This document shows, one piece after another, positions 4,005 through 19,237 of a stretch of 20,000 nucleotides of DNA. The notes beneath the pieces are model-generated. The model was not told where the DNA came from, made no database searches, and saw nothing but the letters and a program-made list of their open reading frames with translations. The DNA is from an uncultured virus (IMG/VR IMGVR_UViG_3300031759_000013) (taxonomy: Duplodnaviria > Heunggongvirae > Uroviricota > Caudoviricetes). Position numbers and translations under genes: made by a program. Within the stretch, counting starts at the first letter, position 1; each line of letters begins with the position of its first letter. The DNA lies in IMG/VR virus record IMGVR_UViG_3300031759_000013; one strand, 5' to 3'.

Positions 4005-4010
4005 GTGTTC

Positions 4011-5528
4011 TTAATAGCCTGTGGTAGCATTTCGACCAGCTTGGTCATATCCAAAATCGTGTAGGGCAACCCTGTATTCTTCTTCATCAACTTCACTTTG
4101 AGTAGCAGCTACTTGCATTTGATTTAAGAGTAAACCGATGTAGGCCCAAGCATCAACCTGGTCATCATGTCTGTCTCTAGGAAAACGCAGTAACTCATCT
4201 TCGAATGTTTGATACCAATCAGCAGAATTGTCAAATTTAACGGCTCCTGCTCTCATACGAGCTTGCATTGACCTTGCACGACTCAACTTATCACCTGAAG
4301 GCTTGAGTAACACCAGGTTAATAAAAGTGTCCTGCTTCATCATTGCTTCGTTCAAGTACGGTCCGATAGACTTCTGGATAGTACCTGCTTCGATTCCAAA
4401 CAACTCAGGGTTGTACGTTCGCTGGAGGGCGAGAATAGTTTCAACAATTTGCATCCCGTCCATTCGGTCACGAACGATGTTTACACACTGGAGATGTTGG
4501 TTCTCATCCATTCCCGCCACAGCAAAAACACTGTAATCACTATGTTGTCGTTGACTAATAGCTAAGTCACAAGCAATATAGTAATTCAAATTCTTTAATC
4601 TATCTTCTTCCTTAAGCGGAGCAAAGTCACTCTTCTTAAAGAATCCGTTAGCATCATCAAGAGGAACGTTTAACATCTCTTGAGAATATACGTCAGCTAA
4701 TCCTTGTGCGACGTATTGCGCTTTACGCTCTTCTAAGGCTTTCTTGTTCCATCTATCAGGCCACAGAATCTTACTAAAGTCATCTGTATGAGCACGATAC
4801 TTAATGGATAACCAAGAAGTCTTGTAATTTGTATACTGTCTTAAATCTTCAGTAATTAAGTTCTTTAAAGCTTTAGTGCCTAGGGATGCTAGTTGAGACT
4901 CAGGCATCAACCTTTCAAGAAGGGAGTCTAAGTGCAAAATAGTACCGACTATGCGAATCTTTCCTGTAACTGACAGGGCAGGGATAAGAGCAGAGTAAAA
5001 CCAACGTCTTAACTTCTCTCGTCTATCCTTATTGAGAACCTGTTCATCAGATTCCATATCGTCACAGATAACTAAGTCTGGACGTTTGTTCAACCACTTT
5101 AAACCACGAAGCTTTTGTTCAGAGCCTTTAGCCTGAATACGGAATGTGTGTCCGTCTTCGAATTTACCTATTATATCATCTTCTGTTTGTTTTGTCAACT
5201 CAATGTTGCCAAATAGACCATGTATATCGTCATTGTCCCTAAGTTCTTTAATGATATCACCTAAGAACAAACCAGCTTGACTAAAGCTGTCTGAGACAAT
5301 CAAGACATATCTAGACCTGCGAAACAACACCTCAGCGAGACAATAAGTATAAGTAACAGCAGTACTTTTGCCATGGCCTCGTGGTGCGCTAATCGCAACG
5401 AATTTATCTTTAGTACAGCATAAAGACCATAGTTCTCGGTGGAAGTCAGGAGTTTGTGTAGCAGAATCAAAATTCTTAACTAAACAAGCATTGCTGAATC
5501 CTTCAATTACCTCAGAGGTTAATTCCAT
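4011..5528 (-). CDS. terL: Terminase large subunit
   Basis: Walker A APRGHGKS, Walker B LVICDDME, coupling motif VGT, RNase H-like nuclease motifs ACDLA and HDDQVDA. Confidence 0.93.
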   Translation of the reverse strand: MELTSEVIEGFSNACLVKNFDSATQTPDFHRELWSLCCTKDKFVAISAPRGHGKSTAVTYTYCLAEVLFRRSRYVLIVSDSFSQAGLFLGDIIKELRDNDDIHGLFGNIELTKQTEDDIIGKFEDGHTFRIQAKGSEQKLRGLKWLNKRPDLVICDDMESDEQVLNKDRREKLRRWFYSALIPALSVTGKIRIVGTILHLDSLLERLMPESQLASLGTKALKNLITEDLRQYTNYKTSWLSIKYRAHTDDFSKILWPDRWNKKALEERKAQYVAQGLADVYSQEMLNVPLDDANGFFKKSDFAPLKEEDRLKNLNYYIACDLAISQRQHSDYSVFAVAGMDENQHLQCVNIVRDRMDGMQIVETILALQRTYNPELFGIEAGTIQKSIGPYLNEAMMKQDTFINLVLLKPSGDKLSRARSMQARMRAGAVKFDNSADWYQTFEDELLRFPRDRHDDQVDAWAYIGLLLNQMQVAATQSEVDEEEYRVALHDFGYDQAGRNATTGY

Positions 5529-5958
5529 CTATTATCTTTCTGCACCACCATTTTAACTCTGCATCAGAGCTGTCTAATCTCATTTTATTAACTAGGCTAC
5601 ATACAATTCGTACATTCCAAGCTTCGTAAGGACCACCTGCTATGATTCTATCTAAAGAAGCATTTGTATTAACAACTCCTGAACCATGTAGTTTTGTTAA
5701 AGGAACTCCTGTAATAGCACATACGTAGTTTTGTTTTTTAAGTATTATAACACATTCTTCAACAGTAAGTGTTAAGTGTCTTTCTCTTTTAGAAAGTAAT
5801 CTTATAAAATATCTATCCCAGCTATTACTAGTTTTTTCTTTTTGTTCTTTACGTTCACAGTTTTTACACTTGTGTCCGATGTATTCTTTATTGTTTAATT
5901 TACGAACTCTATATTGGTCAAGTTCAAAAAAAGTATTACATGTGTTACATTGTTTCAT
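5512..5958 (-). CDS. HNH/His-Me-finger-like endonuclease (probable homing endonuclease)
   Basis: CxxC...CxxC N-terminus, then CAITG, SLDRI, GPY...NVRIVC..VNKMR; AT-rich relative to neighbours; best start is the ATG at 5958 with GAAAGGGA RBS. Confidence 0.7.
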   Translation of the reverse strand: MKQCNTCNTFFELDQYRVRKLNNKEYIGHKCKNCERKEQKEKTSNSWDRYFIRLLSKRERHLTLTVEECVIILKKQNYVCAITGVPLTKLHGSGVVNTNASLDRIIAGGPYEAWNVRIVCSLVNKMRLDSSDAELKWWCRKIIDGINL

Positions 5959-6042
5959 TTTATCCCTTTCAGAGGAGTGGAACAGGTGTTTGACCATTCG
6001 CACCTGCGACGAATTGAAAGCTCTTGCGAGACGGTCTTTTAT

Positions 6043-7561: not shown

Positions 7562-7606
7562 AGTAGCTAAGCATTAAACATAAACTAAATTAAAGGATTA
7601 AACATC

Positions 7607-9326: not shown

Positions 9327-9667
9327 TGATTACTGAAAACCTCATACGCAAGGCACGTGCCTACGCATTGAATGATGACTACGTCGTGACAGCTAACCTC
9401 ATTAACCAGCTATGCGATGCCCTAGAAGTCCAAGAAGATAACAGAGCATCGTTATTGTCCTATATGATGGATAATAAAGAAAACTTTAAACACGCTGAGA
9501 TGTATCGTCATCTACGAAATAGTGCCTGCCACGCACCTCATGACGCTATGGCTCCCGCAGTTGTGCTATGTAATGGTAATATGTCATCTTTTGAATGGCT
9601 TGATGGCGATATGCTAGATAAAGCCATTGAGGAAGACATGAAAAAAGACTACTATTGCGGAGCTTGA
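9326..9667 (+). CDS. Early hypothetical protein (113 aa)
   Basis: ORF track; GGAG RBS. Confidence 0.7.
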   Translation: MITENLIRKARAYALNDDYVVTANLINQLCDALEVQEDNRASLLSYMMDNKENFKHAEMYRHLRNSACHAPHDAMAPAVVLCNGNMSSFEWLDGDMLDKAIEEDMKKDYYCGA

Positions 9668-9668
9668 T

Positions 9669-9821
9669 ATGTTGAGCAAATACTGGGTTAGTGATGAGGA
9701 TGGTTTTGTGCTGCGTTGGTTCTATACTAAAGCTGAGGCCCTCGCCTATGTAGGTACTAACGCATGGACAATCGAGCTTCGCAAGGCTCCTAAGTTTATA
9801 TTTGAGGATGCACTATTTTAA
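9669..9821 (+). CDS. Early hypothetical protein (50 aa, MLSKYWVSDEDG...FEDALF)
   Basis: Read manually; GGAG RBS. Confidence 0.6.
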   Translation: MLSKYWVSDEDGFVLRWFYTKAEALAYVGTNAWTIELRKAPKFIFEDALF

Positions 9822-9836
9822 AAGGTTATAAAAGAA

Positions 9837-10004
9837 ATGAGCGCAAACACTACATATTACGCAAGGATACCTAAACTGGTATGGGAATGGATTGAAGTAG
9901 ATGCTTTAGTAGGTGCTGATGTATGGGAAAAATATCCTACAGCTTCTGATGTTTTGCATTGGACTGAGTATGAAGAAATGGAAAGAAAGGCACAAGAAAA
10001 ATGA
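9837..10004 (+). CDS. Hypothetical protein (55 aa) ending ERKAQEK; carries an outlying copy of the cassette junction
   Basis: Read manually; ends in AAAGAAAGGCACAAGAAAAATGA (9982-10004). Confidence 0.65.
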   Translation: MSANTTYYARIPKLVWEWIEVDALVGADVWEKYPTASDVLHWTEYEEMERKAQEK

Positions 10005-10120
10005 GCTTTACTATTTATCAGCAAGATGGCTTAAAGGTGATACAATGGTTCTCATCTGTTGATGAGTTAGTGAAAAGTATGCTTACGCATCCGCATGACG
10101 CATACCATAGGAATGTATAA
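10001..10120 (+). CDS. Hypothetical protein (39 aa, MSFTIYQQDGLKVIQWF...HRNV)
   Basis: Read manually; start lies inside the junction repeat; TAATG overlap with the next ORF. Confidence 0.55.
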   Translation: MSFTIYQQDGLKVIQWFSSVDELVKSMLTHPHDAYHRNV

Positions 10121-10218
10121 TGGACAAGGAAGAAATGCTTTTAATTATCTTTGCGGTTACATCGTGCATTGATACCGTGATTAGTTTGCTTCGTTACTGT
10201 AAAGGGATGGGAGAATAA
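10120..10218 (+). CDS. Small hydrophobic peptide (32 aa)
   Basis: Read manually; MDKEEMLLIIFAVTSCIDTVISLLRYCKGMGE; tiling. Confidence 0.45.
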   Translation: MDKEEMLLIIFAVTSCIDTVISLLRYCKGMGE

Positions 10219-10219
10219 A

Positions 10220-10348
10220 ATGACATATCAAGAAATAGGAAAAGCATTAGGCATCTCGCACGTGATGGTAATTTACATAGAGAGAAAAGCCTTGATGAAG
10301 GTTCGCAAGCGTTTAATGGCTTTAGGGTATGATAGAGATTGTATTTAA
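10220..10348 (+). CDS. Sigma70 region-4-like HTH mini-protein A (42 aa)
   Basis: MTYQEIGKALGISHVMVIYIERKALMKVRKRL resembles sigma region 4.2 (T..E.G..F..T.E.IRQIE.KAL.KLR); GGGAG RBS. Confidence 0.65.
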   Translation: MTYQEIGKALGISHVMVIYIERKALMKVRKRLMALGYDRDCI

Positions 10349-10349
10349 G

Positions 10350-10496
10350 ATGACTAAGATTTATACTTACCAAGAAATAGCAGAAGAAATAGGTGTTACG
10401 CACCAGGCAGTATGGGAGATTGAGAAAAGAGCTTTAATGAAGTTAAGAAAGATTTTTATTAACAGAGGTATATTAAGAGAACATTATTATGACTGA
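10350..10496 (+). CDS. Sigma70 region-4-like HTH mini-protein B (48 aa)
   Basis: MTKIYTYQEIAEEIGVTHQAVWEIEKRALMKLRKIF; clear paralogue of the preceding ORF. Confidence 0.7.
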   Translation: MTKIYTYQEIAEEIGVTHQAVWEIEKRALMKLRKIFINRGILREHYYD

Positions 10497-10680
10497 TGCA
10501 GAATTGACAGCATTATTAAATCGTGGTGGAATTGCTCCAGCATTATATGAAGGTGAAGTAGGAGAAACTAACCTCCCTACATGGCGTAAACTAGCTAAGG
10601 AATTTAGAAACTATTATGAAGTATATTATAACACACAATCTGATTCACGAGACTCTTTCCTTAACCAAGATAATGCCTGA
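10489..10680 (+). CDS. Hypothetical protein (63 aa)
   Basis: ORF track; overlaps neighbours by 8 nt. Confidence 0.55.
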   Translation: MTDAELTALLNRGGIAPALYEGEVGETNLPTWRKLAKEFRNYYEVYYNTQSDSRDSFLNQDNA

Positions 10681-10798
10681 AGATAATCGTGCAAGCACTT
10701 ACGCACCTGAAGAAATGGACTGCGAGCACGTAGTTTGGGATTGTGATAACATTTCAGGAGAAGCTCTAGGAGGCTTTCAAGATGAAGATGAAGGATAG
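10673..10798 (+). CDS. Small acidic protein (41 aa, MPEDNRAS...QDEDEG)
   Basis: Internal ATG of the 10616..10798 ORF fits the tiling better. Confidence 0.45.
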   Translation: MPEDNRASTYAPEEMDCEHVVWDCDNISGEALGGFQDEDEG

Positions 10799-10867
10799 GT
10801 ATCAAATGACTAAGAAAACAGCTAAAAAGCACCTTAAATCGCCTATAAAAGGCAACGGAGACACCAG

Positions 10868-11083
10868 ATGAGATGCTATTGCTGCAATGTGTTATTAACT
10901 CCATACGAAAGTACGATTAAGTCAGTTAATACTAATGATTATCTAGATATGTGTTTAAAATGTTTAAAAACAGTAAAAACAGATATTAATTATAAAGATA
11001 GAATTGATTTACTAAGTAGTAATGATGTAGATGATTTAGATTTATATCTAGATAATGATTATGATAATCTAGATGAATACTAA
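10868..11083 (+). CDS. Small Cys-rich (probable zinc-binding) protein with an acidic tail
   Basis: CYCC...CLKC and Asp-rich C-terminus; GGAG RBS. Confidence 0.7.
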   Translation: MRCYCCNVLLTPYESTIKSVNTNDYLDMCLKCLKTVKTDINYKDRIDLLSSNDVDDLDLYLDNDYDNLDEY

Positions 11084-11166
11084 GTAGTATGTAGTACTAA
11101 ATAGTAAATAATATTAATATTGTTTTTAAAAACTAAATTAACTAAGTAGTATGTAGTACTAAATAG
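11079..11166. repeat. Exact 26-bp direct repeat around a 36-bp AT-rich spacer (candidate replication origin or operator)
   Basis: ACTAAGTAGTATGTAGTACTAAATAG at 11079-11104 and 11141-11166. Confidence 0.8.
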
Positions 11167-11174
11167 AGAAAATT

Positions 11175-11744
11175 ATGTCTAAAATTAAAATACTTGTAGC
11201 GTGTGAATATAGTGGTAGAGTTAGAGATGCTTTTATTAAAAGAGGCTTTGATGCTATTTCATGCGACTTACTTCCTACTGATGTCCCTGGGCCTCATTAT
11301 CAAGGAGATGTATTTGATATTATTGATAATGGTTTTTCTTTGATGGTTGCTCACCCACCTTGCACGCACTTAGCAGTTTCTGGTTCAAGATGGTTTAAAG
11401 ACAAGGTGGTAGAACAGGCAGAGGCTTTAGATTTTGTTCGTAAACTACTTGATGCAAATATTAAACATATTGCTTTAGAAAATCCTATTAGCGTGATTTC
11501 TAGTAAAATTAGAAAACCTGACCAGATAATACAGCCTTGGCAGTTCGGGCATGGAGAAACTAAAGCAACTTGTCTATGGCTTAAAAACTTACCTAAACTT
11601 GTTCCTACTAATATTGTTGAAGGCAGAGAAGCTAAAGTGCACAAAATGCCTCCTAGCCCTGATAGATGGAAACTACGCAGCACTACTTACCAAGGAATCG
11701 CTGATGCGATAGCACAACAATGGGGAGATTATTTAAGTGTCTAA
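11175..11744 (+). CDS. Compact DNA (cytosine-5)-methyltransferase-like protein
   Basis: Rossmann-like start ILVACEYSG, SCDL, GDV, catalytic-type HPPC and ENP motifs. Confidence 0.7.
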   Translation: MSKIKILVACEYSGRVRDAFIKRGFDAISCDLLPTDVPGPHYQGDVFDIIDNGFSLMVAHPPCTHLAVSGSRWFKDKVVEQAEALDFVRKLLDANIKHIALENPISVISSKIRKPDQIIQPWQFGHGETKATCLWLKNLPKLVPTNIVEGREAKVHKMPPSPDRWKLRSTTYQGIADAIAQQWGDYLSV

Positions 11745-13314
11745 TTTCCTTAAGCACATTCCATGTCTTAAATGCGGTAGCTCCGATGGGAATTCATTGT
11801 ATGATGACCATCACGAATATTGTCATGTGTGTGGTAATCACATTAAAGGCGATGGAACAGAAAGTTATGTTGCACCTACAAGGAAGAAGAATATGTTAGA
11901 AGTTAAAGGCAGTATTATGTCGATTAGCGACAGAGGCATCACACGAGATACTTGCCAATATTACGGAGTAACTCAAGATGGGACTTCACAGTTCTATCCC
12001 TACGCAGATGCAGAAGGTATTATTGTAGCTACCAAGAATCGTAATGTTGAGCATAAGACTTTTGGTATCTCTGGAGAGTGGAAACATACGACTTTATTCG
12101 GTCAGCAGTTATTTCCTAAAGGCGGTAAGACTGTCACTATCCATGAAGGTGAGCTAGATGCCCTAGCAGGGTTCCAGATGAGTGGTAGCAAGTACGCTAA
12201 TGTCTCAGTACGTAACGGAGCACAAGCAGCTCTAAAGGACGTTAAAGCCTCTTATGAGTGGTTATCTTCCTTTGAGAATATCTATATCTGCTTTGATGCT
12301 GATGAGCCTGGACAGAAGGCAGCGAATGAAGTAGCAGAGATTCTAGGTAGCAAGTGTAAGATTGTGAAGCACGTAGCAGGTTTTAAAGATGCTTGTGATT
12401 ATCTTGCAGTAGGTAAAGGAGCTGATTATGTTAAGCAATGGTGGGCAGCAGAGCAATGGACACCGGATGGAATTATCGCAGGTTCTTCGTTATGGGAAGA
12501 AGTTAATAGACCTGTGGAGAAATCGTCAGCCCTCTATCCTTGGGCAGGAGTCAACGAGCTTACCTATGGAATCCGTCCAGCAGAGCTTATCACAGTCTGT
12601 GCAGGTTCAGGACTAGGTAAGTCTCAATTCTTGCGTGAGATTCTCTGGCACTTGATACAGACTACAGACTCTAACATTGGCTTAATGTTTATGGAAGAAT
12701 CTGTACGTAAGACAGCGAGAAGTATTATGTCTTTACACTTGAACAAACCTTTACATTTACCTGACACTTTAGTAAGTAATGAAGAACTCAAGCAGTCCTT
12801 TGATGCTACGATGGGTACAGATAGATTGTATTTATGGGATAACTTTGGTTCTACGGATATTGACAACGTGATGAATCGTATTCGATACTTCGCTAAAGCA
12901 GCAGATTGCAAGTATATCTTTTTAGACCATATTTCAATGATTATTTCTGCACAATCTAACGGTGATGAGCGCAAGGCTATTGATGAGTTAATGACGAAGT
13001 TGCGTATGTTAGTTCAAGAAACTGGAGTGTGTCTTATTGCTGTGTCACATCTGAAGAGGCCAGATAGTAAGGGACATGAGGAAGGGGCTGCGACATCATT
13101 GTCTCAGTTGCGTGGTTCTGCTTCTATCGCCCAACTTAGTGACATTGTTATTGGATTGGTTCGTAATGCTCAAGCTGAAGACCCTATTGAACGCAACACT
13201 ACCAGGGTTTCCATTTTAAAAAATAGATTTTCAGGATTAACTTCACCCCATTGTGCTTCGTTGTTATACAATAAAGACTCTGGACGAATGCTTGAAATGG
13301 AGGATGTATTATGA
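11737..13314 (+). CDS. T7 gp4-type primase-helicase
   Basis: Zn ribbon CLKC..CHVC, TOPRIM EGELDA and DAD, Walker A AGSGLGKS, DHIS, SHLKR, LRGSASIAQLSD, KNR; GTG start. Confidence 0.93.
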   Translation: MSNFLKHIPCLKCGSSDGNSLYDDHHEYCHVCGNHIKGDGTESYVAPTRKKNMLEVKGSIMSISDRGITRDTCQYYGVTQDGTSQFYPYADAEGIIVATKNRNVEHKTFGISGEWKHTTLFGQQLFPKGGKTVTIHEGELDALAGFQMSGSKYANVSVRNGAQAALKDVKASYEWLSSFENIYICFDADEPGQKAANEVAEILGSKCKIVKHVAGFKDACDYLAVGKGADYVKQWWAAEQWTPDGIIAGSSLWEEVNRPVEKSSALYPWAGVNELTYGIRPAELITVCAGSGLGKSQFLREILWHLIQTTDSNIGLMFMEESVRKTARSIMSLHLNKPLHLPDTLVSNEELKQSFDATMGTDRLYLWDNFGSTDIDNVMNRIRYFAKAADCKYIFLDHISMIISAQSNGDERKAIDELMTKLRMLVQETGVCLIAVSHLKRPDSKGHEEGAATSLSQLRGSASIAQLSDIVIGLVRNAQAEDPIERNTTRVSILKNRFSGLTSPHCASLLYNKDSGRMLEMEDVL

Positions 13315-13523
13315 GTGAGAAATTAGTATTAGAAGTTTTTGAGCGTGGTAAAGCGTTTGGGTATGCTGAAGGACTTAAAACCAATAAAGTAAAAACACTA
13401 ACAGATGCAGAAATTGCACAAGTATTTCAAGATGACAATTTATGGCGTTATAGTGATTTGGTGTTAGAAAGTGATGGAATTCAGTTTGCTAGAGCAATAC
13501 TAAGAAAGGCACAAGAGAAATGA
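13311..13523 (+). CDS. Cassette protein 1 (70 aa), ends FARAILRKAQEK
   Basis: GGAGG RBS; ATGA overlap with helicase gene; ends in the junction repeat. Confidence 0.75.
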   Translation: MSEKLVLEVFERGKAFGYAEGLKTNKVKTLTDAEIAQVFQDDNLWRYSDLVLESDGIQFARAILRKAQEK

Positions 13524-13762
13524 ACTATCAATCTCCATTTACCCGTTGGTGGGATGCAAACATAACTCAGATGGCGGTCAGTCCTGAGATTAGAAAGCTG
13601 ATTGCTATGGCATTTGAGGGCGGTCAATTATCCACAAAACCTCGTGAGTTAAGTGATGATGAGATATGTGATATTTGGCTTGATGTATTTTCAAATAATT
13701 CCACCGCAGAAAGACAGTTAGTTTTTGCTAGAGCAATACTAAAGAAAGCACAAGAGAAATGA
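13520..13762 (+). CDS. Cassette protein 2 (80 aa), ends FARAILKKAQEK
   Basis: Starts and ends inside junction repeats. Confidence 0.75.
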   Translation: MNYQSPFTRWWDANITQMAVSPEIRKLIAMAFEGGQLSTKPRELSDDEICDIWLDVFSNNSTAERQLVFARAILKKAQEK

Positions 13763-13847
13763 TTAGCAAAGCAAGTGTAGTGCTTGGAGTGAGACAACTC
13801 GCTCGATTGCTAACGGTATTGGTTGGCTACCGTCTGCACAGTCAACC
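13763..13847 (+). ncRNA. Candidate structured non-coding RNA cassette (three-way junction, hairpin, two pseudoknots)
   Basis: Six complementary segment pairs cover almost all bases; the three non-Watson-Crick pairs are all G-U on the plus strand; bounded by junction repeats. Confidence 0.5.
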
Positions 13848-13873
13848 CCTAATTTAAGAAAGGCACAAGAGAA

Positions 13874-14251
13874 ATGACTACTAAAATGCTATATCGTGAT
13901 TTAGAAATCCTTGACTTACTTAAACTACGTTTTATCCGAGACCCTGATAATAAAGATGTTTATGTAGGAAGAACAACGGACGAAGAGCTAGATAAGTACG
14001 AAGAAATACTAAGAAATACTAAGAAAGGCACAAGAGAAATGAACGCAAATGAACTAGCTCAACAATTAAGTCAGATGGATACGCTTCAAGATGGTATGTC
14101 TAAATTTGAATACTCAATAATTCAAAAATCTGAAGCCATGCTACGCCAGCAACAAGCTGAAATAGAGGCGTTGAAAGCAAAGCATGACGCAATATCATGT
14201 TCAAGCTGTGCATGTGGCTTTATTAAAAGAGGAAAGGCTAATGAAAAATGA
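13874..14251 (+). CDS. Fused cassette protein (two units joined at 14039, MNANE module)
   Basis: Contains an internal junction repeat read in a shifted frame because of the AAGAAATACT tandem duplication at 14001-14020. Confidence 0.7.
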   Translation: MTTKMLYRDLEILDLLKLRFIRDPDNKDVYVGRTTDEELDKYEEILRNTKKGTREMNANELAQQLSQMDTLQDGMSKFEYSIIQKSEAMLRQQQAEIEALKAKHDAISCSSCACGFIKRGKANEK

Positions 14252-14454
14252 AATATTGGAAACCTTTAACACCTTTGCGTTATGTAATGCGTGGTGAAAT
14301 GCCGATTCTTCAGCAAGCATGGGGATTATATGTGCCAATTCCTGATGCACCTTACGAATCGCAAATAGATTATATGTGGCGTGATATTCCAACTTTGCCT
14401 GAAAACAAAGGCAATGGTTTGGATTGGATTATTGAAGAACCATTATCAGTTTAA
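14248..14454 (+). CDS. Cassette protein (68 aa, ILQQAW...WRDIP)
   Basis: Start lies in a variant junction; the stop is the TAA of the next junction. Confidence 0.7.
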   Translation: MKYWKPLTPLRYVMRGEMPILQQAWGLYVPIPDAPYESQIDYMWRDIPTLPENKGNGLDWIIEEPLSV

Positions 14455-14470
14455 GAAAGGCACAAGAGAA

Positions 14471-14746
14471 ATGAACGCAAATGAATTGATTGATGAACTG
14501 TGGGTTTGTTTAGAATCTCCAATTATTAGTGATTCAGATACTAGAGATTTAGTTATGAATGCAGCCACTATGCTACGCCAGCAACAAGCTGAAATAGAAA
14601 CATTACAAACAAGAATCGTGGATAGGGAAAATGAATATTCACAAATAGCCATTCAAAATGAAACTAATAAAGCGTTGTTAGATGATGCTAATGCTGAAAT
14701 AGAGGCGTTAAAAGAACAATTGAGGTTTAGCTATGACGGACAATGA
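14471..14746 (+). CDS. Cassette protein (91 aa, MNANE...MLRQQQAEIE coiled coil)
   Basis: ATG of the junction at 14471; shares modules with the 14039 and 15315 units. Confidence 0.7.
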   Translation: MNANELIDELWVCLESPIISDSDTRDLVMNAATMLRQQQAEIETLQTRIVDRENEYSQIAIQNETNKALLDDANAEIEALKEQLRFSYDGQ

Positions 14747-14945
14747 ACCAGTAGCGTGGATGGATAAAGATGGAAATATTTTTTATACAGATGGAATGGC
14801 TCATACACTTCCACTCTATACCCATCCAGCAAAGACGCTAAACAAAGAAGAAATACTGAAATTAGCTGAAGAATTTGATATATGGCTTGGCTATGATGAG
14901 ATTAAATTTATTCAGTTTGTGTTAAGAAAGGCTAATGAGAAATGA
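14733..14945 (+). CDS. Cassette protein (70 aa, EPVAW...PLYTHP...LRKANEK)
   Basis: GAGG RBS; ends in a variant junction. Confidence 0.75.
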   Translation: MTDNEPVAWMDKDGNIFYTDGMAHTLPLYTHPAKTLNKEEILKLAEEFDIWLGYDEIKFIQFVLRKANEK

Positions 14946-15034
14946 ACACAAAAGACTTCGTAATATCTTGGGTGATGATTTATATAGCTGGCGGTATTGC
15001 TCTTTATTTAATACTTTCAGCAAGCCATTGTTAA
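14942..15034 (+). CDS. Cassette membrane peptide (30 aa, MNTKDFVISWVMIYIAGGIALYLILSASHC)
   Basis: Read manually; start and stop both supplied by junction repeats; one hydrophobic helix. Confidence 0.55.
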   Translation: MNTKDFVISWVMIYIAGGIALYLILSASHC

Positions 15035-15050
15035 GAAAGGCACAAGATAA

Positions 15051-15536
15051 ATGAGCTACCACGGAAAACTGCAAACATTAAAAAACGGTACAGCAGATTC
15101 GGAAATTCAACTATGGGCTTATCAGCAAATAGAAACAATAGAATATTTGTACAAAACGCACGACAAAGATAAAGCACAGTTAGTTGCAGCAGAACAGCTT
15201 TATTTAGATTCCTTTGAGCGTGGAAAGCAAATAGGTTATGCAGAAGGAATGATGAACAGGTCAATTAGTGTTCAAAATAATGAGCAGTTCATGTTCCGTG
15301 AACAAGGTAAAGAAATGAACGCAAATGAAATAGACCCTAAATATGTTGCTGATTTAGAAAAAATAATTGTCAAACAACAAGCTGAAATAGAGGCGTTGAA
15401 AGCTGACAAATTATTACATGATGAAGCGTATTTAAGCCAGATGAAAGAAATAGAGGCGTTGAAAGACGAGGCTGCAGGGTGGGAGATGTCTTACGAAAAC
15501 TGCCATAGAACATGCAGTGGATATGGGATGAATTAA
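15051..15536 (+). CDS. Cassette protein (161 aa), apparent fusion with an internal MNANE unit at 15315
   Basis: Start in a junction; contains FERGK..GYAEG, MNANE and two EIEALK modules. Confidence 0.7.
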   Translation: MSYHGKLQTLKNGTADSEIQLWAYQQIETIEYLYKTHDKDKAQLVAAEQLYLDSFERGKQIGYAEGMMNRSISVQNNEQFMFREQGKEMNANEIDPKYVADLEKIIVKQQAEIEALKADKLLHDEAYLSQMKEIEALKDEAAGWEMSYENCHRTCSGYGMN

Positions 15537-15537
15537 A

Positions 15538-15909
15538 ATGATACCAGCTATGCGTAATGCGAATGCTTCTCATGTAGACTTTGGTTTCCTTCGTGGAATG
15601 ATTCCTGATAATCCTCACTTCATGCCTAGTAATATTGACATGATAGTTGAACGTAAAGGAAAGTTTATCTTCGGTGAATGGAAGCGTGAAGGTGAGAAGA
15701 TGACGATGGGTCAAAAGATTCTGTTATTATCTTTATCTAAAATTCATACGGTATTGATTATCACAGGTCATGTTGACGAAGAAGCATACGTTTCTAAAGT
15801 ACAAGTATTAAACTGTAACGGTAAACTAAACCTCATTGGTAACAGTAAAGAATCTTTAATAACATATTTACAAGACTGGTATGAAGCAGTCGAGAAAGGA
15901 AAACTATGA
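15538..15909 (+). CDS. Putative PD-(D/E)xK-fold nuclease-like protein
   Basis: ID.IVER.G.FIFGEWK....M..GQ resembles the VRR-NUC/restriction-endonuclease-like motif. Confidence 0.55.
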   Translation: MIPAMRNANASHVDFGFLRGMIPDNPHFMPSNIDMIVERKGKFIFGEWKREGEKMTMGQKILLLSLSKIHTVLIITGHVDEEAYVSKVQVLNCNGKLNLIGNSKESLITYLQDWYEAVEKGKL

Positions 15910-16037
15910 GAAGCACTGGCGGCAAAGGCGATAGGCAAAGACCATTAACAATACCGAAAGAACAATTTGAGAAAAACTGGGATGAGATATTTAAGAAAAA
16001 AGAAAAGCCTGTTCCTCCTCCTGTTCCTACTAAGTAA
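15906..16037 (+). CDS. Small basic protein (43 aa, MRSTGGKGDRQRP...FEKNWDEIF)
   Basis: Read manually; AAGGA RBS; ATGA overlap. Confidence 0.65.
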   Translation: MRSTGGKGDRQRPLTIPKEQFEKNWDEIFKKKEKPVPPPVPTK

Positions 16038-16224
16038 TGTAGTATGGATAGTTATTATGCACAAAGATGCAATGTATAATAGCTATGTAGGTGATGACAG
16101 ATGCCATGATACAATGAATTATCAAGCGTTCTATTCTGTTAAAAATGAAATAGAATATTGTTTTTATAGAAAGACTGCTTATCCATATAGGCTAAGTGGT
16201 GGGATAATAGGAGTTAAACCATGA
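15982..16224 (+). CDS. Putative membrane-anchored small protein
   Basis: Basic N-terminus plus hydrophobic stretch; start uncertain (15967/15982/16057); ATGA overlap with the next gene. Confidence 0.5.
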   Translation: MRYLRKKKSLFLLLFLLSNVVWIVIMHKDAMYNSYVGDDRCHDTMNYQAFYSVKNEIEYCFYRKTAYPYRLSGGIIGVKP

Positions 16225-16361
16225 AGATTATTATTGCAACATTGTTGTTTTGTTTGGTGACAGTAGCCCAGGCACAGAGCACTACAACGATTGTTATGCC
16301 TGATGGTACAATGATGGTGTGTACTAATTTTGGTACAGTTGTTTCTTGTGAAAAGATGTAA
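16221..16361 (+). CDS. Small secreted protein (46 aa) with signal peptide
   Basis: MKIIIATLLFCLVTVAQA-QSTTTIVMPDGTMMVCTNFGTVVSCEKM; AxA cleavage site; AGGAG RBS; TAATG overlap with the polymerase gene. Confidence 0.65.
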   Translation: MKIIIATLLFCLVTVAQAQSTTTIVMPDGTMMVCTNFGTVVSCEKM

Positions 16362-18013
16362 TGCTTAAGACTTTAGTCCTCGATATTGAAACCAACCTAG
16401 CACATGACATAGTCTGGTGCGTGGTTACTTTACATCGTGAAACTGGAGAGATTAAAGTATGGAAAGAACCTACAGGGTTGAAGGAATATTTAGAAAATGC
16501 TATTACTATCGTGGGACACAATATTTTTGCTTTTGATGCTTATCTCCTTAATCGTTTATGGAATACGAAAATAAGAAAATCTCAACTTCAAGATACTTTA
16601 CTTTTATCTCGTTTATCTGATTCAAGCAGAGAAGGAGGACACAGTTTAGACTCGTGGGGTAAAACTCTTGGTTATCATAAATTAGATTTTAATGCTTATG
16701 ACGACGGGCTTACAGATACTATGCTTGAGTATTGTCAAAGAGACGTAGAGCTTACATCTAAAGTATATGATATGTTATGGAAAGAATTAGATGCTAACAA
16801 GATTAGCGACGAAGCTATTAAACTAGAGTATGAAGTACAAGTAATTCTATCGGAGATGGAACGTAATGGATTCAAGCTTGATGAACCGTATGCACAGACG
16901 TTGCTCTGTGAAATTAAAACTGAGATGGCTCAGATTGAAGAAGCTTTACAAGCCATATTCCCTCCGATTGTTACGGAGCGTGTATCGGAGAAGACTGGTA
17001 AAAGACTTAAAGATGATGTTGAAGCATTTAATATTGGCTCACGTCAACAGATTGCTAAGCGTCTTATGTCTAAAGGTTGGAAGCCTACCAAGACTACAGA
17101 GAAGGGGCAGATTATTGTCGATGAGACGGTACTTGCTGATGTACAGCTTGAGGAAGCTAAACCTATTGCAAGATATTTGACATTACAAAAGAGAGCATCA
17201 CAATTAGATTCATGGTTAGAAAAACTAGGAAAGGACGGGAGAGTTCATGGTAAAGTTATTGGTTTTGGTGCTGTTACTGGCAGAGCTACCCATAGTAGCC
17301 CTAATATGGCTCAGGTGCCAGCAGTGCGAGCTACTTTGGGTACAGAGTTCCGTTCGTGTTGGACGGTTGATAAGGGGAATGTCCTTGTGGGTGTTGACTT
17401 GTCTGGTATTGAACTGCGTTGTTTTGCTCATTACCTTAATGACTTGGACTACATAAATGAGACAGTCAACGGTGATGTCCACACGAGAAATCAGCAAGCT
17501 TTCGGGGTTGAGACGAGAGACCTTGCGAAGACTGTCCTTTATGCGACTTTGTACGGAGCATCCCCAACCAAGATTGGTACAGTTATTGGTGGCACTGCGA
17601 AGCAAGGAGCCAACATTATCAATAGCTTCAGTAAAGCAATACCAGCGTATGCGAGGCTTAAATCCAAAGTTGAACGCCTTGCTGAAAAGGGAACACTACC
17701 TGGGCTTCATGGTTATCAACTTAAGGTCAGGTCGGCTCATTCGTCGCTCAACACGTTACTACAAAGTGCAGGGGCTATCATCGCTAAGCAGTGGCTTGTT
17801 CAAATCAAAAAGAACTTGACAGCAGCAAAGATACCTTATAAGCTAGTAACCTGGTGTCACGACGAGGTTCAAATAGAAACACCTGAACAGTACGGAGAAC
17901 AAGTAGGTAAATTAGTAGTACAAGCAGCAAGAGAATCAGGAGAGATTTTAAAGTTTAGATGTCCCGTAGGTGCAGAATACAAAGTAGGACATACATGGGC
18001 TGATTGTCATTAA
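16361..18013 (+). CDS. Family A DNA polymerase, T7 gp5-like
   Basis: Exo motifs DIET, GHN..FD, YC..DV; TGR; motif A DLSGIELR; motif B RDLAKTVLYATLYG; motif C HDE. Confidence 0.95.
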   Translation: MLKTLVLDIETNLAHDIVWCVVTLHRETGEIKVWKEPTGLKEYLENAITIVGHNIFAFDAYLLNRLWNTKIRKSQLQDTLLLSRLSDSSREGGHSLDSWGKTLGYHKLDFNAYDDGLTDTMLEYCQRDVELTSKVYDMLWKELDANKISDEAIKLEYEVQVILSEMERNGFKLDEPYAQTLLCEIKTEMAQIEEALQAIFPPIVTERVSEKTGKRLKDDVEAFNIGSRQQIAKRLMSKGWKPTKTTEKGQIIVDETVLADVQLEEAKPIARYLTLQKRASQLDSWLEKLGKDGRVHGKVIGFGAVTGRATHSSPNMAQVPAVRATLGTEFRSCWTVDKGNVLVGVDLSGIELRCFAHYLNDLDYINETVNGDVHTRNQQAFGVETRDLAKTVLYATLYGASPTKIGTVIGGTAKQGANIINSFSKAIPAYARLKSKVERLAEKGTLPGLHGYQLKVRSAHSSLNTLLQSAGAIIAKQWLVQIKKNLTAAKIPYKLVTWCHDEVQIETPEQYGEQVGKLVVQAARESGEILKFRCPVGAEYKVGHTWADCH

Positions 18014-18041: not shown

Positions 18042-18084
18042 AGCTAAGTAGTACAAATTCAACTAAATTAAAGGAATCAACATT

Positions 18085-18507
18085 ATGAGTACAGGTAAAT
18101 CAGTAGCAGTTCAGGCAGACGTATTTTGGGCATGTACACAAACTCCTAATCCTACATCGGATAAAGAGCAATACACAATCAACTTGTCTAACCTATCAGA
18201 TAAGGCAGCAACAGCATTAGAAGAGCTAGGTATTACAGTTCGTACAAACGAAGAGAAGCGTTCAGCAGAAGGTAAGTACATCACTTGTAAGAGCAATTAC
18301 AAGATTGATGCTTTTACTACTGACGGAGAACTCATCTCTGCAGATAAGAAGATTGCTAATGGTAGCAAATGCACAGCGATTGTTTCTTCGTATGAGTGGA
18401 ATTATCGTGGTAAAAAAGGTGTTAGTCCATCTTTGAAAAAGTTGACGATTACTAATCTAATCGAATACAAAGGTGCTAACGTAGAAGAACTTGACGACGT
18501 ATTGTAG
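18085..18507 (+). CDS. Single-stranded DNA-binding protein, T7 gp2.5-like
   Basis: Position between polymerase and exonuclease genes; IANGS.C, Y.W..RGKKGVS..L pattern; acidic tail VEELDDVL. Confidence 0.75.
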   Translation: MSTGKSVAVQADVFWACTQTPNPTSDKEQYTINLSNLSDKAATALEELGITVRTNEEKRSAEGKYITCKSNYKIDAFTTDGELISADKKIANGSKCTAIVSSYEWNYRGKKGVSPSLKKLTITNLIEYKGANVEELDDVL

Positions 18508-18516
18508 AAAATAACA

Positions 18517-18538
18517 GAGGAGCTTCGGCTCCTCATTT
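18517..18538 (+). terminator. Stable hairpin after the SSB gene (weak terminator or mRNA-stabilising hairpin)
   Basis: GAGGAGC-TTCG-GCTCCTC followed by ATTT; C(UUCG)G loop; short U tract. Confidence 0.7.
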
Positions 18539-18550
18539 AGAAAGTTTATA

Positions 18551-19237
18551 ATGCACGTTTTAATAGATGCGGACATTCTTGGGTACAGAATAGGTTTTTC
18601 TACTGAAGAAGAAAGCGAAAAGATTGCTATTTCTCGTTGTGCCCATTTTATTGAAACAATGTTATGGGAAGACCTAGAAGGAGTTGAAACATATCAGGGA
18701 TTCCTTACTGGTAAAACTAATTTTAGAAATGAAATAGCTGTCACAGCTCCTTACAAAGGAAACAGAACATCTGCTAAGCCTAAACATTTAGAAATATTAC
18801 GTGAATATATGATAGATGGTTGGGGATTTTCAGTGTCTGACGGACAAGAAGCTGACGATGATATTGCGACAGCGCACGTAGCTCATAACTATCAAAGTAT
18901 TATCGCATCGATTGATAAAGACATGGCCCAATTAAAAGGTAAGCACTGGAACTTTGTCAAGAAAGAGATGACAGAAGTAAACGAAGAAGAAGCATTGCTC
19001 AACTTTTATAGACAGGTACTTACAGGTGACAGAGTTGATAACATCATTGGTCTCAAAGGCATCGGCCCTGTTAAGGCTGACAAAATCCTCAACGGATGTA
19101 CAAGTGCAGCAGAAATGTATACTGCTTGTGTCGAAGCTTACGGTGGCTCAGAAGAACGAACGATTGAAAATGCAAGACTGCTTTGGCTTAGAAGAGAAGC
19201 CAACCAGCTCTGGCAACCTCCCACCGAAGGGTTATAA
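18551..19237 (+). CDS. 5'-3' exonuclease/RNase H, T7 gp6-like (FEN family)
   Basis: IDAD, YKGNR, EADD, SIDKD and the helix-3-turn-helix GDRVDNIIGLKGIGPVKA. Confidence 0.9.
   Translation: MHVLIDADILGYRIGFSTEEESEKIAISRCAHFIETMLWEDLEGVETYQGFLTGKTNFRNEIAVTAPYKGNRTSAKPKHLEILREYMIDGWGFSVSDGQEADDDIATAHVAHNYQSIIASIDKDMAQLKGKHWNFVKKEMTEVNEEEALLNFYRQVLTGDRVDNIIGLKGIGPVKADKILNGCTSAAEMYTACVEAYGGSEERTIENARLLWLRREANQLWQPPTEGL

What the first reader, a model, noticed from the sequence alone, without database searches (positions are those of the whole stretch)
13311..15536. Repeat-delimited array of interchangeable mini-gene cassettes between helicase and polymerase
Seen: eight copies of a 23-bp junction (TAAGAAAGGCACAAGAGAAATGA) at 13501, 13740, 13855, 14020, 14229, 14452, 14923 and 15032, with four exact copies and a GGCTAATGA subtype at 14229/14923. 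They separate units of about 110-470 bp. The junction works in every frame. In one frame it encodes LRKAQEK-stop with an ATGA overlap into the next gene, in another its leading TAA is the stop (13857, 14454, 15034), and in the third it reads through as KKGTREM to make a fusion. Identity at synonymous positions suggests the DNA itself is conserved or recently copied. Inference: this is a standardised recombination handle plus translational coupler that lets the phage add, drop and reorder accessory genes without breaking the replication operon. It would be an integron-like cassette system with no integrase in view. Repeat-bounded modular genes are known conceptually (PeSL elements of T4-like phages, mycobacteriophage start-associated sequences), but this junction is embedded in coding sequence.
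Basis: partly seen in the sequence, partly recalled or inferred. Interest (0 to 1): 0.88.

Follow-up and report, generated by a model that had tools for sequence, protein, structure and literature searches.

The report
Shared recombination junction shuffling phage mini-genes
A 22-base stretch at the ends of tiny phage genes is letter-for-letter identical in over a hundred unrelated freshwater phage fragments and marks the points where these genes are swapped, reordered and fused, so it looks like a shared plug for exchanging small accessory genes.

Summary
The 23-mer occurs at all eight stated places: four exact, three with 1-3 mismatches, one degenerate. Further copies lie at 9982 and about 15311. 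None is expected by chance.

It is not private to this phage. These sit beside quite different replication and recombination modules.

A codon-blind scan shows near-total identity at synonymous sites, with variable sequence directly upstream. Relatives whose helicase gene is only 72-81% identical in DNA carry the 22-mer exactly.

Homology between contigs stops at its 3' edge in 166 of 280 cases. Close relatives differ by cassettes added, dropped, replaced, reordered or fused at these junctions.

It is one of several DNA-identical handles, some inside genes.

It has no integrase, hairpin, promoter or terminator.

Best reading: short identical handles for homologous recombination that also act as a stop/ribosome-site/start adaptor. 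This is a new variant of modular shuffling (PeSL-like), not an integron.

The parts
13311..15536 (+). Array of nine or ten mini-genes (30-161 aa) between the primase-helicase and a conserved 123-aa gene. ORFs: 13311-13523, 13520-13762, 13759-13857, 13874-14251 (a fusion that contains 14039-14251), 14248-14454, 14471-14746, 14733-14945, 14942-15034, 15051-15536.
   Evidence: ORF list. No Pfam or PHROG family for any of them. Content differs between relatives.
13485..13523 (+). 39-nt handle (FARAILRKAQEK*) whose last 22-23 nt are the exact junction. Frame A: TGA stop overlapping the next ATG.
   Evidence: The FARAI codons are identical in 73 of 73 unbiased contexts.
13724..13762 (+). 39-nt handle variant (FARAILKKAQEK*), 3 mismatches in the junction; frame A.
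13855..13877 (+). Exact junction used in frame B: its leading TAA stops the 32-aa ORF.
14004..14023 (+). 10-bp tandem duplication (AAATACTAAG twice). It shifts the upstream gene into the read-through frame.
   Evidence: Sequence. The L356 homologue lacks it and ends EEILRKAQEK* as a 52-aa gene.
14020..14042 (+). Exact junction read through in frame C (KKGTREM), giving the 125-aa fusion.
14229..14251 (+). Degenerate junction of the GGCTAATGA subtype (..KANEK*); frame A, with ATGA overlap.
   Evidence: family D4.
14452..14474 (+). Exact junction in frame B (TAA stop of the 68-aa ORF), followed by an MNANEL gene.
14923..14945 (+). Junction of the GGCTAATGA subtype (..LRKANEK*); frame A.
15032..15054 (+). 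Junction with 1 mismatch. Its TAA stops the 30-aa ORF (frame B).
15311..15333 (+). Degenerate in-frame junction plus MNANE start inside the 161-aa ORF: an older fusion of two modules.
   Evidence: families D5 and D8. The L358 homologue has a different second module after the same first module.
9837..10004 (+). Outlying cassette (55 aa) ending in a junction variant at 9982-10004.
   Evidence: The L079 cassette matches at all but 4 of the 163 positions between the junctions, plus 1 in the downstream junction. Homology starts and stops at the two junctions and the flanks are unrelated.
14039..14058 (+). MNANELA start handle. Also at 14471 and 15325.
   Evidence: family D5. 35 of 46 contexts have the same DNA. 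It is the right-hand crossover in L306 versus L307.
14138..14180 (+). MLRQQQAEIEALK handle. Also at 14570-14612, 14696-14714, 15363-15405 and 15447-15465.
   Evidence: families D3 and D6. It is the left-hand crossover in L306 versus L307.
14740..14762 (+). NEPVAW handle at the start of the 14733 gene.
   Evidence: 100% 23-25 nt islands in relatives. 80 of 90 contexts have the same DNA.
14809..14841 (+). PLYTHPAKTL handle inside the 14733 gene.
13392..13414 (+). KTLTDAEI handle inside the 13311 gene.
   Evidence: 100% 23-nt island in L322, L323 and L345. The last block shared with L358 ends here.
11737..13314 (+). T7-type primase-helicase: the left, conserved border of the array.
15538..15909 (+). 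Conserved 123-aa gene: the right border of the variable part. In several relatives the junction sits directly in front of it.
16361..18013 (+). Family A DNA polymerase.
18085..19237 (+). Gp2.5-like ssDNA-binding/annealing protein (18085-18507) and exonuclease (18551-19237): the phage's own candidate recombination enzymes.
   Evidence: phrog_112, E 9e-7; phrog_107, E 2e-57.

Best explanation
The 22-23 nt junction T|AAGAAAGGCACAAGAGAAATGA is the commonest of a small set of short stretches that are identical in DNA. The other stretches lie at the starts of and inside the same mini-genes. They are shared by a large pool of small accessory genes in uncultured, apparently freshwater phages.

Inferred step: when two such phages, or two cassettes in one genome, meet, recombination crosses over in these 20-40 nt islands of perfect identity. 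The agents would be the phages' own annealing and exonuclease enzymes, or copy-choice by the replisome. This exchanges, deletes, duplicates, reorders or fuses the divergent segments between the islands.

Shown: the junction is also a self-contained intercistronic adaptor. It has a TAA stop in one frame, a TGA stop in a second frame, and an unstructured A/G-rich leader. The leader carries AAAGG 10 nt before an ATG that overlaps the TGA. A gene joined upstream in either of two frames is therefore terminated and the next gene has a start site. A gene joined in the third frame becomes a fusion.

Inferred step: the identity of the handles is kept up by the exchange itself. Only cassettes with intact handles spread, and crossovers homogenise the handles. 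New cassettes are probably first captured at the TAA or ATGA microhomologies.
For: Spread and exactness
- In the loci fetched through (exact and degenerate scans), the canonical form makes up 222 of 275 unique junction-like contexts (so enriched for the canonical form). It lies in one orientation in 297 of 297 loci.

DNA-level conservation, tested without codon bias
- Of 160 unique contexts encoding [L]RKAQEK*, 140 have the canonical 22-mer. Codon counts: AGA 160/160, AAG 158, GCA 154, CAA 159, GAG 149, AAA 158.
- With FARAI upstream, five more codons are identical in 73 of 73 contexts, while codons -14 to -16 vary in amino acid.
- The same amino acid has different fixed codons in different handles: Arg is AGA in one and CGC in another; Ala is GCT, GCA or GCG. 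Codon bias therefore does not explain it.
- 23 of 72 helicase relatives carry the exact 22-mer (39 copies), although their helicase DNA is 72-81% identical to the window, median 75%. By my arithmetic, 0.75^22 is 0.002.

Breakpoints
- 166 of 280 HSP ends where homology is lost going downstream fall at the junction's 3' edge. 50 of 302 where homology begins fall at or near it, offsets -5 to +30.
- Conservation drops to background immediately after ..AAATGA.
- Among 34 helicase-polymerase intervals, 37 of 37 internal ends of >=95%-identity HSPs lie in the interval. 16 fall in eight handles that cover 9.2% of positions.

Specific events
- L306 versus L307 (99.3-99.4% identical flanks): a 606 nt versus 180 nt replacement, bounded by the AEIEALK and MNANEL handles.
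- L294 versus L293: a 523-nt insert lying between two ATGA and ending in the canonical junction.
- L322 versus L321: the first gene is replaced up to the 39-nt handle.
- L356 has the window's cassettes in another order plus two extra cassettes. Its cassettes are 95-99% identical to the window's, while the block holding its helicase and first cassette is 88.6% identical.
- The 9837 cassette recurs between two junctions in an unrelated context.

Array arithmetic: spacing mod 3 is 2, 1 and 0 in 90, 27 and 9 of 126 units, which matches frames A, B and C.

Adaptor features
- ATG is present in 257 of 262 contexts.
- The RNA is no more structured than shuffles (z 0.12 to 1.97).
- AAAGG followed by 10 nt and ATG also occurs at genes 7607 and 18085.
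- In 29 frame-B contexts, identity to the consensus upstream sequence extends at most 4 nt beyond the junction (1 nt, the T of TAA, in 23 of them), and the upstream ORFs are diverse.

Enzymes: a gp2.5-like annealing protein, an exonuclease and endonuclease VII are in the window. RecT, ERF, Sak, YqaJ and PD-(D/E)XK proteins lie beside arrays elsewhere. The minimal pairing segment is 23-27 bp for Red-beta and 31-34 bp for RecA (passage in PMC3945230).

The array is not an assembly accident: L355 and L357 reproduce it at 100% over 5284 and 9040 nt.
Against: - No recombination event was observed directly. Reads, circles and deletion joints could not be examined.
- Breaks at gene ends are expected anyway, because selection keeps only intact genes. 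The control points 200 nt away gave too few pairs to be a clean contrast (7 and 6 pairs).
- 21 of the 37 systematic breakpoints did not fall in my eight handle strings. Many of them sit at degenerate junction variants, but that judgement was made by eye.
- HSP ends are not independent events, so the binomial figure overstates significance.
- Loci were collected by the motif itself, which inflates its share of breakpoints.
- 22 nt is at or below the published minimal pairing length.
- The ribosome-site role is read from anatomy only.
- A trans-acting factor that binds the sequence cannot be excluded and could also explain exact conservation of this one handle.
- The host is unknown: MAG labels are mixed and probably mis-binned.
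Confidence: 0.68

Rival explanations
1. The junction is a regulatory site, like the start-associated sequences of Cluster K mycobacteriophages. A host or phage factor (protein or RNA) would recognise it on the mRNA or DNA to control translation of early mini-genes. Exact conservation would then reflect binding specificity, and recombination breakpoints would fall there only because it marks gene ends.
For: - The junction sits at the start codon, contains an SD-like AAAGG, and lies in one orientation only.
- It occurs as a non-coding unit after unrelated ORFs in 29 frame-B contexts.
- SAS motifs are likewise conserved before genes of different families and can contain the upstream stop codon (passages in PMC3203893).
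Against: - Handles inside genes, away from any start (LTDEEI, EPVAW, LYTHP, AEIEALK), show the same codon-level identity and are also breakpoints.
- The motif is shared by phages with quite different replication modules, so a phage-encoded factor would have to be shared too.
- Other genes of the same phage use ordinary, varied ribosome sites.
- No Rfam family matches and there is no structure.
Confidence: 0.15
2. It is a passive by-product: a young, fast-expanding family of paralogous mini-genes whose shared C-terminal helix (..FARAILRKAQEK) has simply not had time to diverge. The DNA itself would have no role, and mosaicism would come from illegitimate recombination filtered by selection for intact genes.
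For: - About three-quarters or more of contexts use the junction as coding sequence for ..RKAQEK*: 178 clear and 24 unclear of 232; 197 clear and 27 unclear of 260.
- The protein family is large: 3470 cluster representatives at E<=0.001, and 113 of the 145 top hits examined end in [RK]KA.[ED]K.
- Tandem paralogues are visible in the window.
Against: - The handle is exact in phages whose core genes are about 75% identical in DNA. It abuts unalignable sequence. It follows unrelated ORFs in another frame.
- Both ends of replaced segments lie in identical handles in genomes that are 99% identical elsewhere.
- Cassettes are more alike (95-99%) than the block holding the helicase gene (88.6%) in L356, which means exchange after the cores diverged.
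Confidence: 0.1
3. Exchange is driven by an enzyme that recognises the site: either an integron-like site-specific recombinase, or a homing-type endonuclease that cuts the 22-39 nt sequence and provokes repair from a co-infecting genome.
For: - The core is long, exact and asymmetric, with a sharp 3' boundary.
- An endonuclease VII/HNH-like gene is in the window at 5512-6003 on the minus strand.
Against: - No integrase or resolvase family was found in the window ORFs scanned or among 100 flank ORFs.
- No HNH, GIY-YIG or LAGLIDADG family was found among 110 ORFs that follow the junction.
- There are no inverted repeats and no hairpin.
- Several different handles serve as breakpoints.
- The window's nuclease lies next to the terminase, the usual place for a packaging or resolving nuclease.
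Confidence: 0.05

Closest known systems
PeSL mobile regulatory cassettes of T4-type phages (Arbiol et al. 2010, PMC2839356: abstract and section 13 read; Comeau et al. 2014, PMC4122927: search listing only)
   Same: Both are short repeated motifs concentrated in hyperplastic regions full of small ORFans. Both sit between a stop codon and the next start and carry a Shine-Dalgarno sequence. Recombination between copies explains insertions, deletions and replacements between close relatives.
   Different: A PeSL is intergenic and made of a sigma-70 promoter plus a stem-loop terminator. This junction has neither. It is mostly coding sequence, is usable in three frames, and is only 22-39 nt long. 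It is shared exactly across phages with different replication modules, and it is accompanied by handles inside genes. Mini-circles, shown for PeSLs, could not be tested here.
Start-associated sequences (SAS/ESAS) of Cluster K mycobacteriophages (Pope et al. 2011, PMC3203893: passages read)
   Same: Both are asymmetric, single-orientation motifs at translation starts of non-structural genes. Both include an SD core, occur before genes of different families, and sometimes contain the upstream stop codon.
   Different: The SAS is a 13-bp GGGATAGGAGCCC confined to one phage cluster. It is absent from the window and has not been linked to breakpoints in the passages I read. This junction includes the ATG itself, usually encodes a conserved peptide tail, and coincides with homology breaks.
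Short conserved flanking ('linker') sequences in lambdoid phages, and relaxed homologous recombination by Rad52-like recombinases (Martinsohn et al. 2008, PMC2327257, and De Paepe et al. 2014, PMC3945230: passages read). The Susskind-Botstein module theory is recalled, not read.
   Same: Modules are exchanged by homologous recombination at short shared sequences. Phage annealing proteins work on short or diverged homology. Arrays lie next to exo/annealing genes, as in the lambda exo-xis region (the lambda comparison is recalled).
   Different: In those phages the flanks are usually longer, diverged 'shoulders', or no signal is seen at all. Here the handles are exact, standardised, repeated up to 10 times per fetched locus, and shared by hundreds of contigs.
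Integron gene cassettes (attC plus IntI)
   Same: Both are arrays of small promoterless genes in one orientation, separated by a recurring site, with content that differs between relatives.
   Different: There is no tyrosine recombinase, no attC-type imperfect inverted repeat or folded bottom strand, and no attI/Pc. It works like a cassette array but is not an integron.

Membership tests
Integron | IntI-type tyrosine recombinase next to the array | tested here: not met
   No integrase or recombinase family in the window ORFs scanned or among 100 large flank ORFs from motif-bearing loci.
Integron | attC sites: imperfect inverted repeats that fold as a hairpin | tested here: not met
   0 inverted repeats in 13300-15540. 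The four junction contexts folded are no more stable than shuffles (z 0.12-1.97).
Integron | Cassettes differ in content and order between relatives | tested here: met
PeSL / mobile regulatory cassette | Sigma-70-like early promoter within the motif | tested here: not met
   17 promoter-like sites in 9500-16500 against 24.7 expected. None coincides with a junction.
PeSL / mobile regulatory cassette | Stable stem-loop terminator or attenuator | tested here: not met
   One terminator-like site, on the minus strand and outside the array, against 3.9 expected.
PeSL / mobile regulatory cassette | Location in a hyperplastic region; indels and replacements between relatives bounded by the motif | tested here: met
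PeSL / mobile regulatory cassette | Excised mini-circles from recombination between neighbouring copies | not testable with these tools
Start-associated sequence (Cluster K SAS) | 13-bp consensus GGGATAGGAGCCC, 3-7 bp before the start codon | tested here: not met
   0 matches with up to 2 mismatches in the window.
Start-associated sequence (Cluster K SAS) | Asymmetric, single-orientation motif at starts of non-structural genes, containing an SD core | tested here: met
   All copies on the coding strand. AAAGG lies 10 nt before the ATG. ATG is present in 257 of 262 contexts.
Homologous-recombination linker (module boundary sequence) | Perfect identity about as long as the minimal pairing segment of phage recombinases | tested here: inconclusive
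   The handles are 22-39 nt exact. The published minimum is 23-27 bp for Red-beta (PMC3945230). The enzymes of these phages are untested.
Homologous-recombination linker (module boundary sequence) | Homology between genomes begins or ends in the linker | tested here: met
   166 of 280 ends; 16 of 37 against 9.2% expected; examples.

The most novel reading that the evidence does not exclude
Unrelated phages of one host community share a standard plug. It is a three-frame stop/ribosome-site/start adaptor, used together with a few in-gene handles, all kept identical in DNA. With it they draw on a common pool of thousands of mini-gene modules. The modules are assembled combinatorially into stand-alone or fused small proteins on a conserved scaffold with hypervariable inserts. 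That would amount to a recombination-based diversity generator for early accessory (perhaps anti-defence) proteins. The cassettes would behave as semi-selfish elements whose conserved ends are their cis-acting mobility signals.
Probability: 0.35. Interest if true: 0.9.

Novelty: new variant of a known kind. Interest (0 to 1): 0.8.

Why it matters
Whether phage mosaicism arises from homologous exchange at conserved linkers or from random illegitimate joining followed by selection has been argued for decades. Clear, standardised linkers have been documented mainly as the PeSLs of T4-type phages.

Here a single 22-39 nt sequence is exact at synonymous sites. It lies inside coding sequence, is usable in all three frames, and is shared by over a hundred contigs with different replication modules. 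It coincides with the breakpoints of cassette gain, loss, reordering and fusion. This gives a concrete, searchable marker for following gene flow among uncultured phages.

It is also a simple system for measuring how much homology phage recombination needs. And it defines a very large, unnamed family of modular mini-proteins (3470 cluster representatives) whose hypervariability suggests an arms-race function.

A practical point: annotators will mis-call these arrays. In MW202753.1 the stretch between two junctions carries no annotated gene.

Tried and rejected
- Own-genome search: the assembly is not held. The nearest record, G001, is the same sequence and gave no comparison.
So there was no read-level test for circles or deletion joints.
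- Pfam and PHROGs on all mini-genes found no family. The only hits were two sub-threshold coiled-coil matches for 14471-14746.
- AlphaFold2 model of the 14733 protein (pLDDT 81.6; two short strands and two helices). Foldseek against the PDB gave no match with E<=0.001, best E 0.71. The protein's function stays unknown.
- Rfam: 0 hits at E<=1.
- Promoter and terminator scan: no excess.
- Inverted repeats: none.
- GenBank phage collection: only MW202753.1 truly carries the motif. The other 34 records are chance-level matches with E>=0.2, so no cultured phage or host was found.
- MAG titles for the 11 genome-contig hits are mixed: Polynucleobacter, Burkholderiales and betaproteobacteria, but also Bacteroidetes, cyanobacterium, Micrarchaeota and Nitrosotalea. 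I read most of these as mis-binned phage contigs, and the host is left open.
- My first pair test removed identical contexts and so undercounted pairs that share both sides. The redone count was 20 pairs sharing only the upstream side, 15 only the downstream side and 12 both. Its control points 200 nt away yielded only 7 and 6 informative pairs, too few to be a useful contrast.
- A first regular expression for junction subtypes was mis-sized and found nothing. It was corrected.
- Literature: the motif and peptide strings were not found in the library, apart from one unrelated lactoferrin peptide paper. A search for freshwater or Polynucleobacter phage hypervariable regions gave nothing relevant in the listing.

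Full report
**The observation**

The region was read directly and searched with up to three mismatches. The 23-mer TAAGAAAGGCACAAGAGAAATGA is exact at 13501, 13855, 14020 and 14452. It has one mismatch at 15032 and three mismatches at 13740 and 14923. Shuffles give none.

The copy at 14229 is degenerate: six of 23 letters differ by my reading. It shares the GGCTAATGA middle with 14923 (family D4). A further decayed copy lies in frame inside the 161-aa ORF near 15311 (families D5 and D8).

The ORF list confirms the three uses:
- The junction encodes ..LRKAQEK and its TGA overlaps the next ATG.
- Its leading TAA ends the upstream ORF (13857, 14454, 15034).
- At 14020 it is read through as KKGTREM.

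Translating the 23-mer gives a stop in two frames and an open frame ending in M in the third.

**The surroundings**

The array lies between a T7-type primase-helicase (11737-13314) and a family A DNA polymerase (16361-18013). Downstream are a gp2.5-like single-strand annealing protein and an exonuclease. An endonuclease VII-like gene, terminase and portal lie on the other strand. None of the mini-genes matches Pfam or PHROGs.

The array contains other repeats:
- An MNANEL start.
- An MLRQQQAEIEALK block.
- A FERGK..GYAEG block shared by the first and last genes.

**The junction is not private to this phage**

- It is in 11 stretches of metagenome-assembled genomes with mixed and probably mis-binned labels.
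- It occurs twice in the circular GenBank genome MW202753.1, which shares nothing else with the window at the DNA level.
- No other GenBank phage record has it.
- The genes beside these arrays include T7-type primase-helicases and PolA, D5-type primases, SNF2 helicases, RecT, ERF, Sak, YqaJ and PD-(D/E)XK nucleases, methylases, radical-SAM enzymes and DNA-hypermodification enzymes. Phages of several kinds therefore carry it, mostly in replication or recombination regions.

**Anatomy across 262 unique contexts**

- Conservation falls to background immediately after ..AAATGA and decays gradually upstream.
- ATG is in place in 257 of 262.
- The upstream gene is in the ..RKAQEK* frame in about three-quarters or more: 178 clear and 24 unclear of 232; 197 clear and 27 unclear of 260.
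- It is in the TAA frame in 29 contexts and in the read-through frame in 7, only 2 of them clear.
- In the TAA-frame cases, identity to the consensus upstream sequence extends at most 4 nt beyond the junction (1 nt, the T of TAA, in 23 of 29), and the upstream ORFs are diverse. The 23-mer can therefore stand alone.
- Downstream ORFs are diverse, 28-265 aa apart from one 3-aa stub, median about 60.
- Within arrays the median spacing is 212 nt. Spacing mod 3 is 2, 1 and 0 in 90, 27 and 9 of 126 units. That is what one gene per unit in frames A, B and C predicts.
- All 297 loci that carry a copy have it in one orientation only.

**Is the DNA, or only the peptide, conserved?**

I scanned IMG/VR with a fully degenerate back-translation of LRKAQEK-stop, which cannot favour any codon.
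- Of 160 unique contexts, 140 carry the canonical 22-mer. The codons are almost fixed: AGA 160/160, AAG 158, GCA 154, CAA 159, GAG 149, AAA 158.
- Where FARAI precedes the tail, its five codons are identical in 73 of 73 contexts, while the three codons before them vary even in amino acid.
- Different handles fix different codons for the same residue: Arg is AGA here and CGC in LRQQQ; Ala is GCT, GCA or GCG according to position. Codon bias is therefore not the cause.
- Among 72 relatives with a long helicase match, 23 carry the exact 22-mer (39 copies). Their helicase DNA is 72-81% identical to the window's.
- In the window-versus-relative comparison, the mini-gene region matches mainly in 23-50 nt islands, most at 90-100% identity. 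The conserved genes to the right match at 72-85% over 146-969 nt.

**Breakpoints**

In an all-against-all comparison of motif-bearing loci from different contigs (HSPs >=100 nt and >=90% identity):
- 166 of 280 ends where homology is lost going downstream lie at the 3' edge of the junction.
- 50 of 302 ends where homology begins lie at or near it, offsets -5 to +30.

The remaining ends cluster at other short DNA-conserved strings: the NNEPVAW start, PLYTHPAKTLTDEEI, MLRQQQAEIEALK and MNANELA. These also show codon-level identity: LTDEEI 93 of 130, EPVAW 80 of 90, MNANEL 35 of 46.

A recount of pairs from different contigs gave 20 that share only the upstream side, 15 only the downstream side, and 12 both. 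The control points in that call gave too few pairs to be useful.

**Close relatives**

The helicase protein retrieved 80 related loci. Of these, 51 hold both the helicase end and the polymerase start. The interval between them is 278-3050 bp, and 21 of the 51 have 1-6 junction copies. The 29 distinct intervals encode 58 protein clusters, 39 of them singletons. The genes next to the polymerase are the stable part.

Systematically, all 37 internal ends of >=95%-identity HSPs between 34 distinct intervals fall inside the interval. Sixteen fall in eight handle strings that cover 9.2% of positions (binomial 5e-8, but the ends are not independent). Most of the other 21 sit, by eye, at degenerate junction variants, at bare ATGA overlaps or at another SD-plus-ATGA boundary.

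Individual events:
- L306 and L307 are 99.3-99.4% identical on both sides of a 606 nt versus 180 nt replacement. Its left end is in the AEIEALK handle and its right end is at the MNANEL start.
- L294 has a 523-nt insert relative to L293. It lies exactly between two ATGA and ends with the canonical junction.
- L322 and L321 differ in the first gene, from the helicase stop up to the 39-nt handle.

The 55-aa cassette at 9837-10004 recurs in L079. It differs at 4 of the 163 positions between the junctions and at 1 in the downstream junction. It lies between two junctions, and the flanks are unrelated.

**The nearest relatives in metagenomes**

I searched with a 40-mer from the helicase 3' end. L355 and L357 are 100% identical to the window over 5284 and 9040 nt. 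The array is therefore reproduced in other assemblies and is not a chimera.

L356 carries the window's cassettes in a different order:
- The 13520 gene lies after the 13759 and 13874 genes, and two further cassettes are interposed.
- The shared cassettes are 95-99% identical to the window's, while the block holding the helicase and first cassette is 88.6% identical.
- Its homologue of the 13874 gene is a separate 52-aa gene ending EEILRKAQEK-stop. This shows that the window's 125-aa fusion arose from the 10-bp tandem duplication at 14004-14023.

L358 shows other rearrangements:
- A triple fusion made by two read-throughs of junction variants, one of them with an A-run one base longer.
- The 14942-type cassette lies before a 14733-type gene.
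- A homologue of the 15051 gene has its second module swapped.

**The protein family**

A profile search shows a very large pool: 3470 cluster representatives at E<=0.001 and 892 at E<=1e-10. Of the 145 top hits examined, 113 end in [RK]KA.[ED]K, and many contain two to four module sets.

The alignment shows a fixed scaffold: MNNEPVAW, a variable stretch, IPLYTHPAKTLTDEEI, another variable stretch, then FARAILRKA.EK. The model is confident (pLDDT 81.6) but has no PDB match at E<=0.001, best E 0.71. What these proteins do remains unknown.

**What it is not**

- Not an integron. There is no integrase, no inverted repeat and no fold.
- Not a PeSL. There is no promoter or terminator signal.
- Not the mycobacteriophage SAS.
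- Not a known RNA family.
- No homing-type nuclease follows the junction in 110 ORFs.

**Mechanism, with its status**

Shown:
- Exact DNA conservation far above that of the core genes.
- A sharp 3' boundary.
- Stop, stop and start in the three frames.
- Unstructured RNA, with AAAGG 10 nt before the ATG, as at two other genes of this phage.
- Breakpoints in the handles, and cassette gain, loss, replacement, reordering and fusion between relatives.
- Annealing and exonuclease genes in this phage and beside many arrays.

Inferred:
- Crossovers occur by homologous recombination or copy-choice within the 22-39 nt islands. Published minimal pairing lengths are 23-27 bp for Red-beta and 31-34 bp for RecA (passage in PMC3945230).
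- The junction supplies termination and re-initiation for whatever is joined.
- Handle identity is maintained because only cassettes with intact handles spread.
- New cassettes are first captured at TAA or ATGA microhomology. The L294/L293 insert and the frame-B contexts suggest this.

**Comparison with what is known**

The closest system is the PeSL-mediated modular shuffling of T4-type phages (PMC2839356, abstract and section 13 read). Also relevant is the older idea of short conserved flanking sequences in lambdoid phages (PMC2327257, introduction passage). This case differs in four ways: it is embedded in coding sequence, it is usable in three frames, it lacks transcription signals, and it is shared exactly by many phage types. 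It also comes with in-gene handles that make the proteins themselves mosaics.

The motif and peptide strings were not found in the paper library.

I rate it a new variant of a known kind.

Noticed in passing
window 11079-11114 and 11141-11176: Two 36-nt direct repeats (89% alike, ACTAAGTAGTATGTAGTACTAAATAG..) lie 62 nt apart, just upstream of the DNA methyltransferase gene at 11175. They could be a promoter pair or an origin-like element (family D11).
   Followed up: no
window 7577-7606 and 18055-18084: The leaders of the genes at 7607 and 18085 (the latter is the gp2.5-like gene) share AACTAAATTAAAGGA plus T.AACAT, ending 10 nt before the ATG. This may be a second standard leader or promoter of this phage.
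   Followed up: no
L291 about 1560-1585 (helicase-polymerase interval): A truncated junction, TACTAAGAAAGGCAAAATGA, sits directly before the homologue of the 15538 gene. It looks like a 7-nt deletion within the motif, which suggests slippage in this purine-rich sequence.
   Followed up: partly
L358 (reverse complement) 268-762: A triple fusion protein is made by two read-throughs of junction variants. One variant has an A-run one base longer (AAAAAAAGG). Such slips may toggle between separate and fused genes.
   Followed up: partly
L140/L141 (contig of 138,666 bases labelled Micrarchaeota MAG) and L142 (Nitrosotalea MAG): Junction arrays sit on contigs binned to archaea, with up to 5 exact copies in L140/L141. 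These are most likely mis-binned phage contigs, one possibly a large phage.
   Followed up: no
L025 and L037, 2018-3004 (- strand): In these loci the junction directly precedes an amino acid:DNA transferase next to a 5-hmdU DNA kinase. The adaptor therefore also fronts large DNA-hypermodification genes, not only mini-genes.
   Followed up: no
L001 (MW202753.1) 3755-4440: The deposited annotation has no gene between two junctions, although two ORFs are plainly there: an MNANEL gene and an MNNEPVAW-type gene ending ..ILRKAQEK. Arrays of this kind are under-annotated.
   Followed up: partly
window 1388-1729 (- strand): A GroES-like co-chaperonin gene lies among the head and packaging genes (phrog_3188, E 3e-13).
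   Followed up: no
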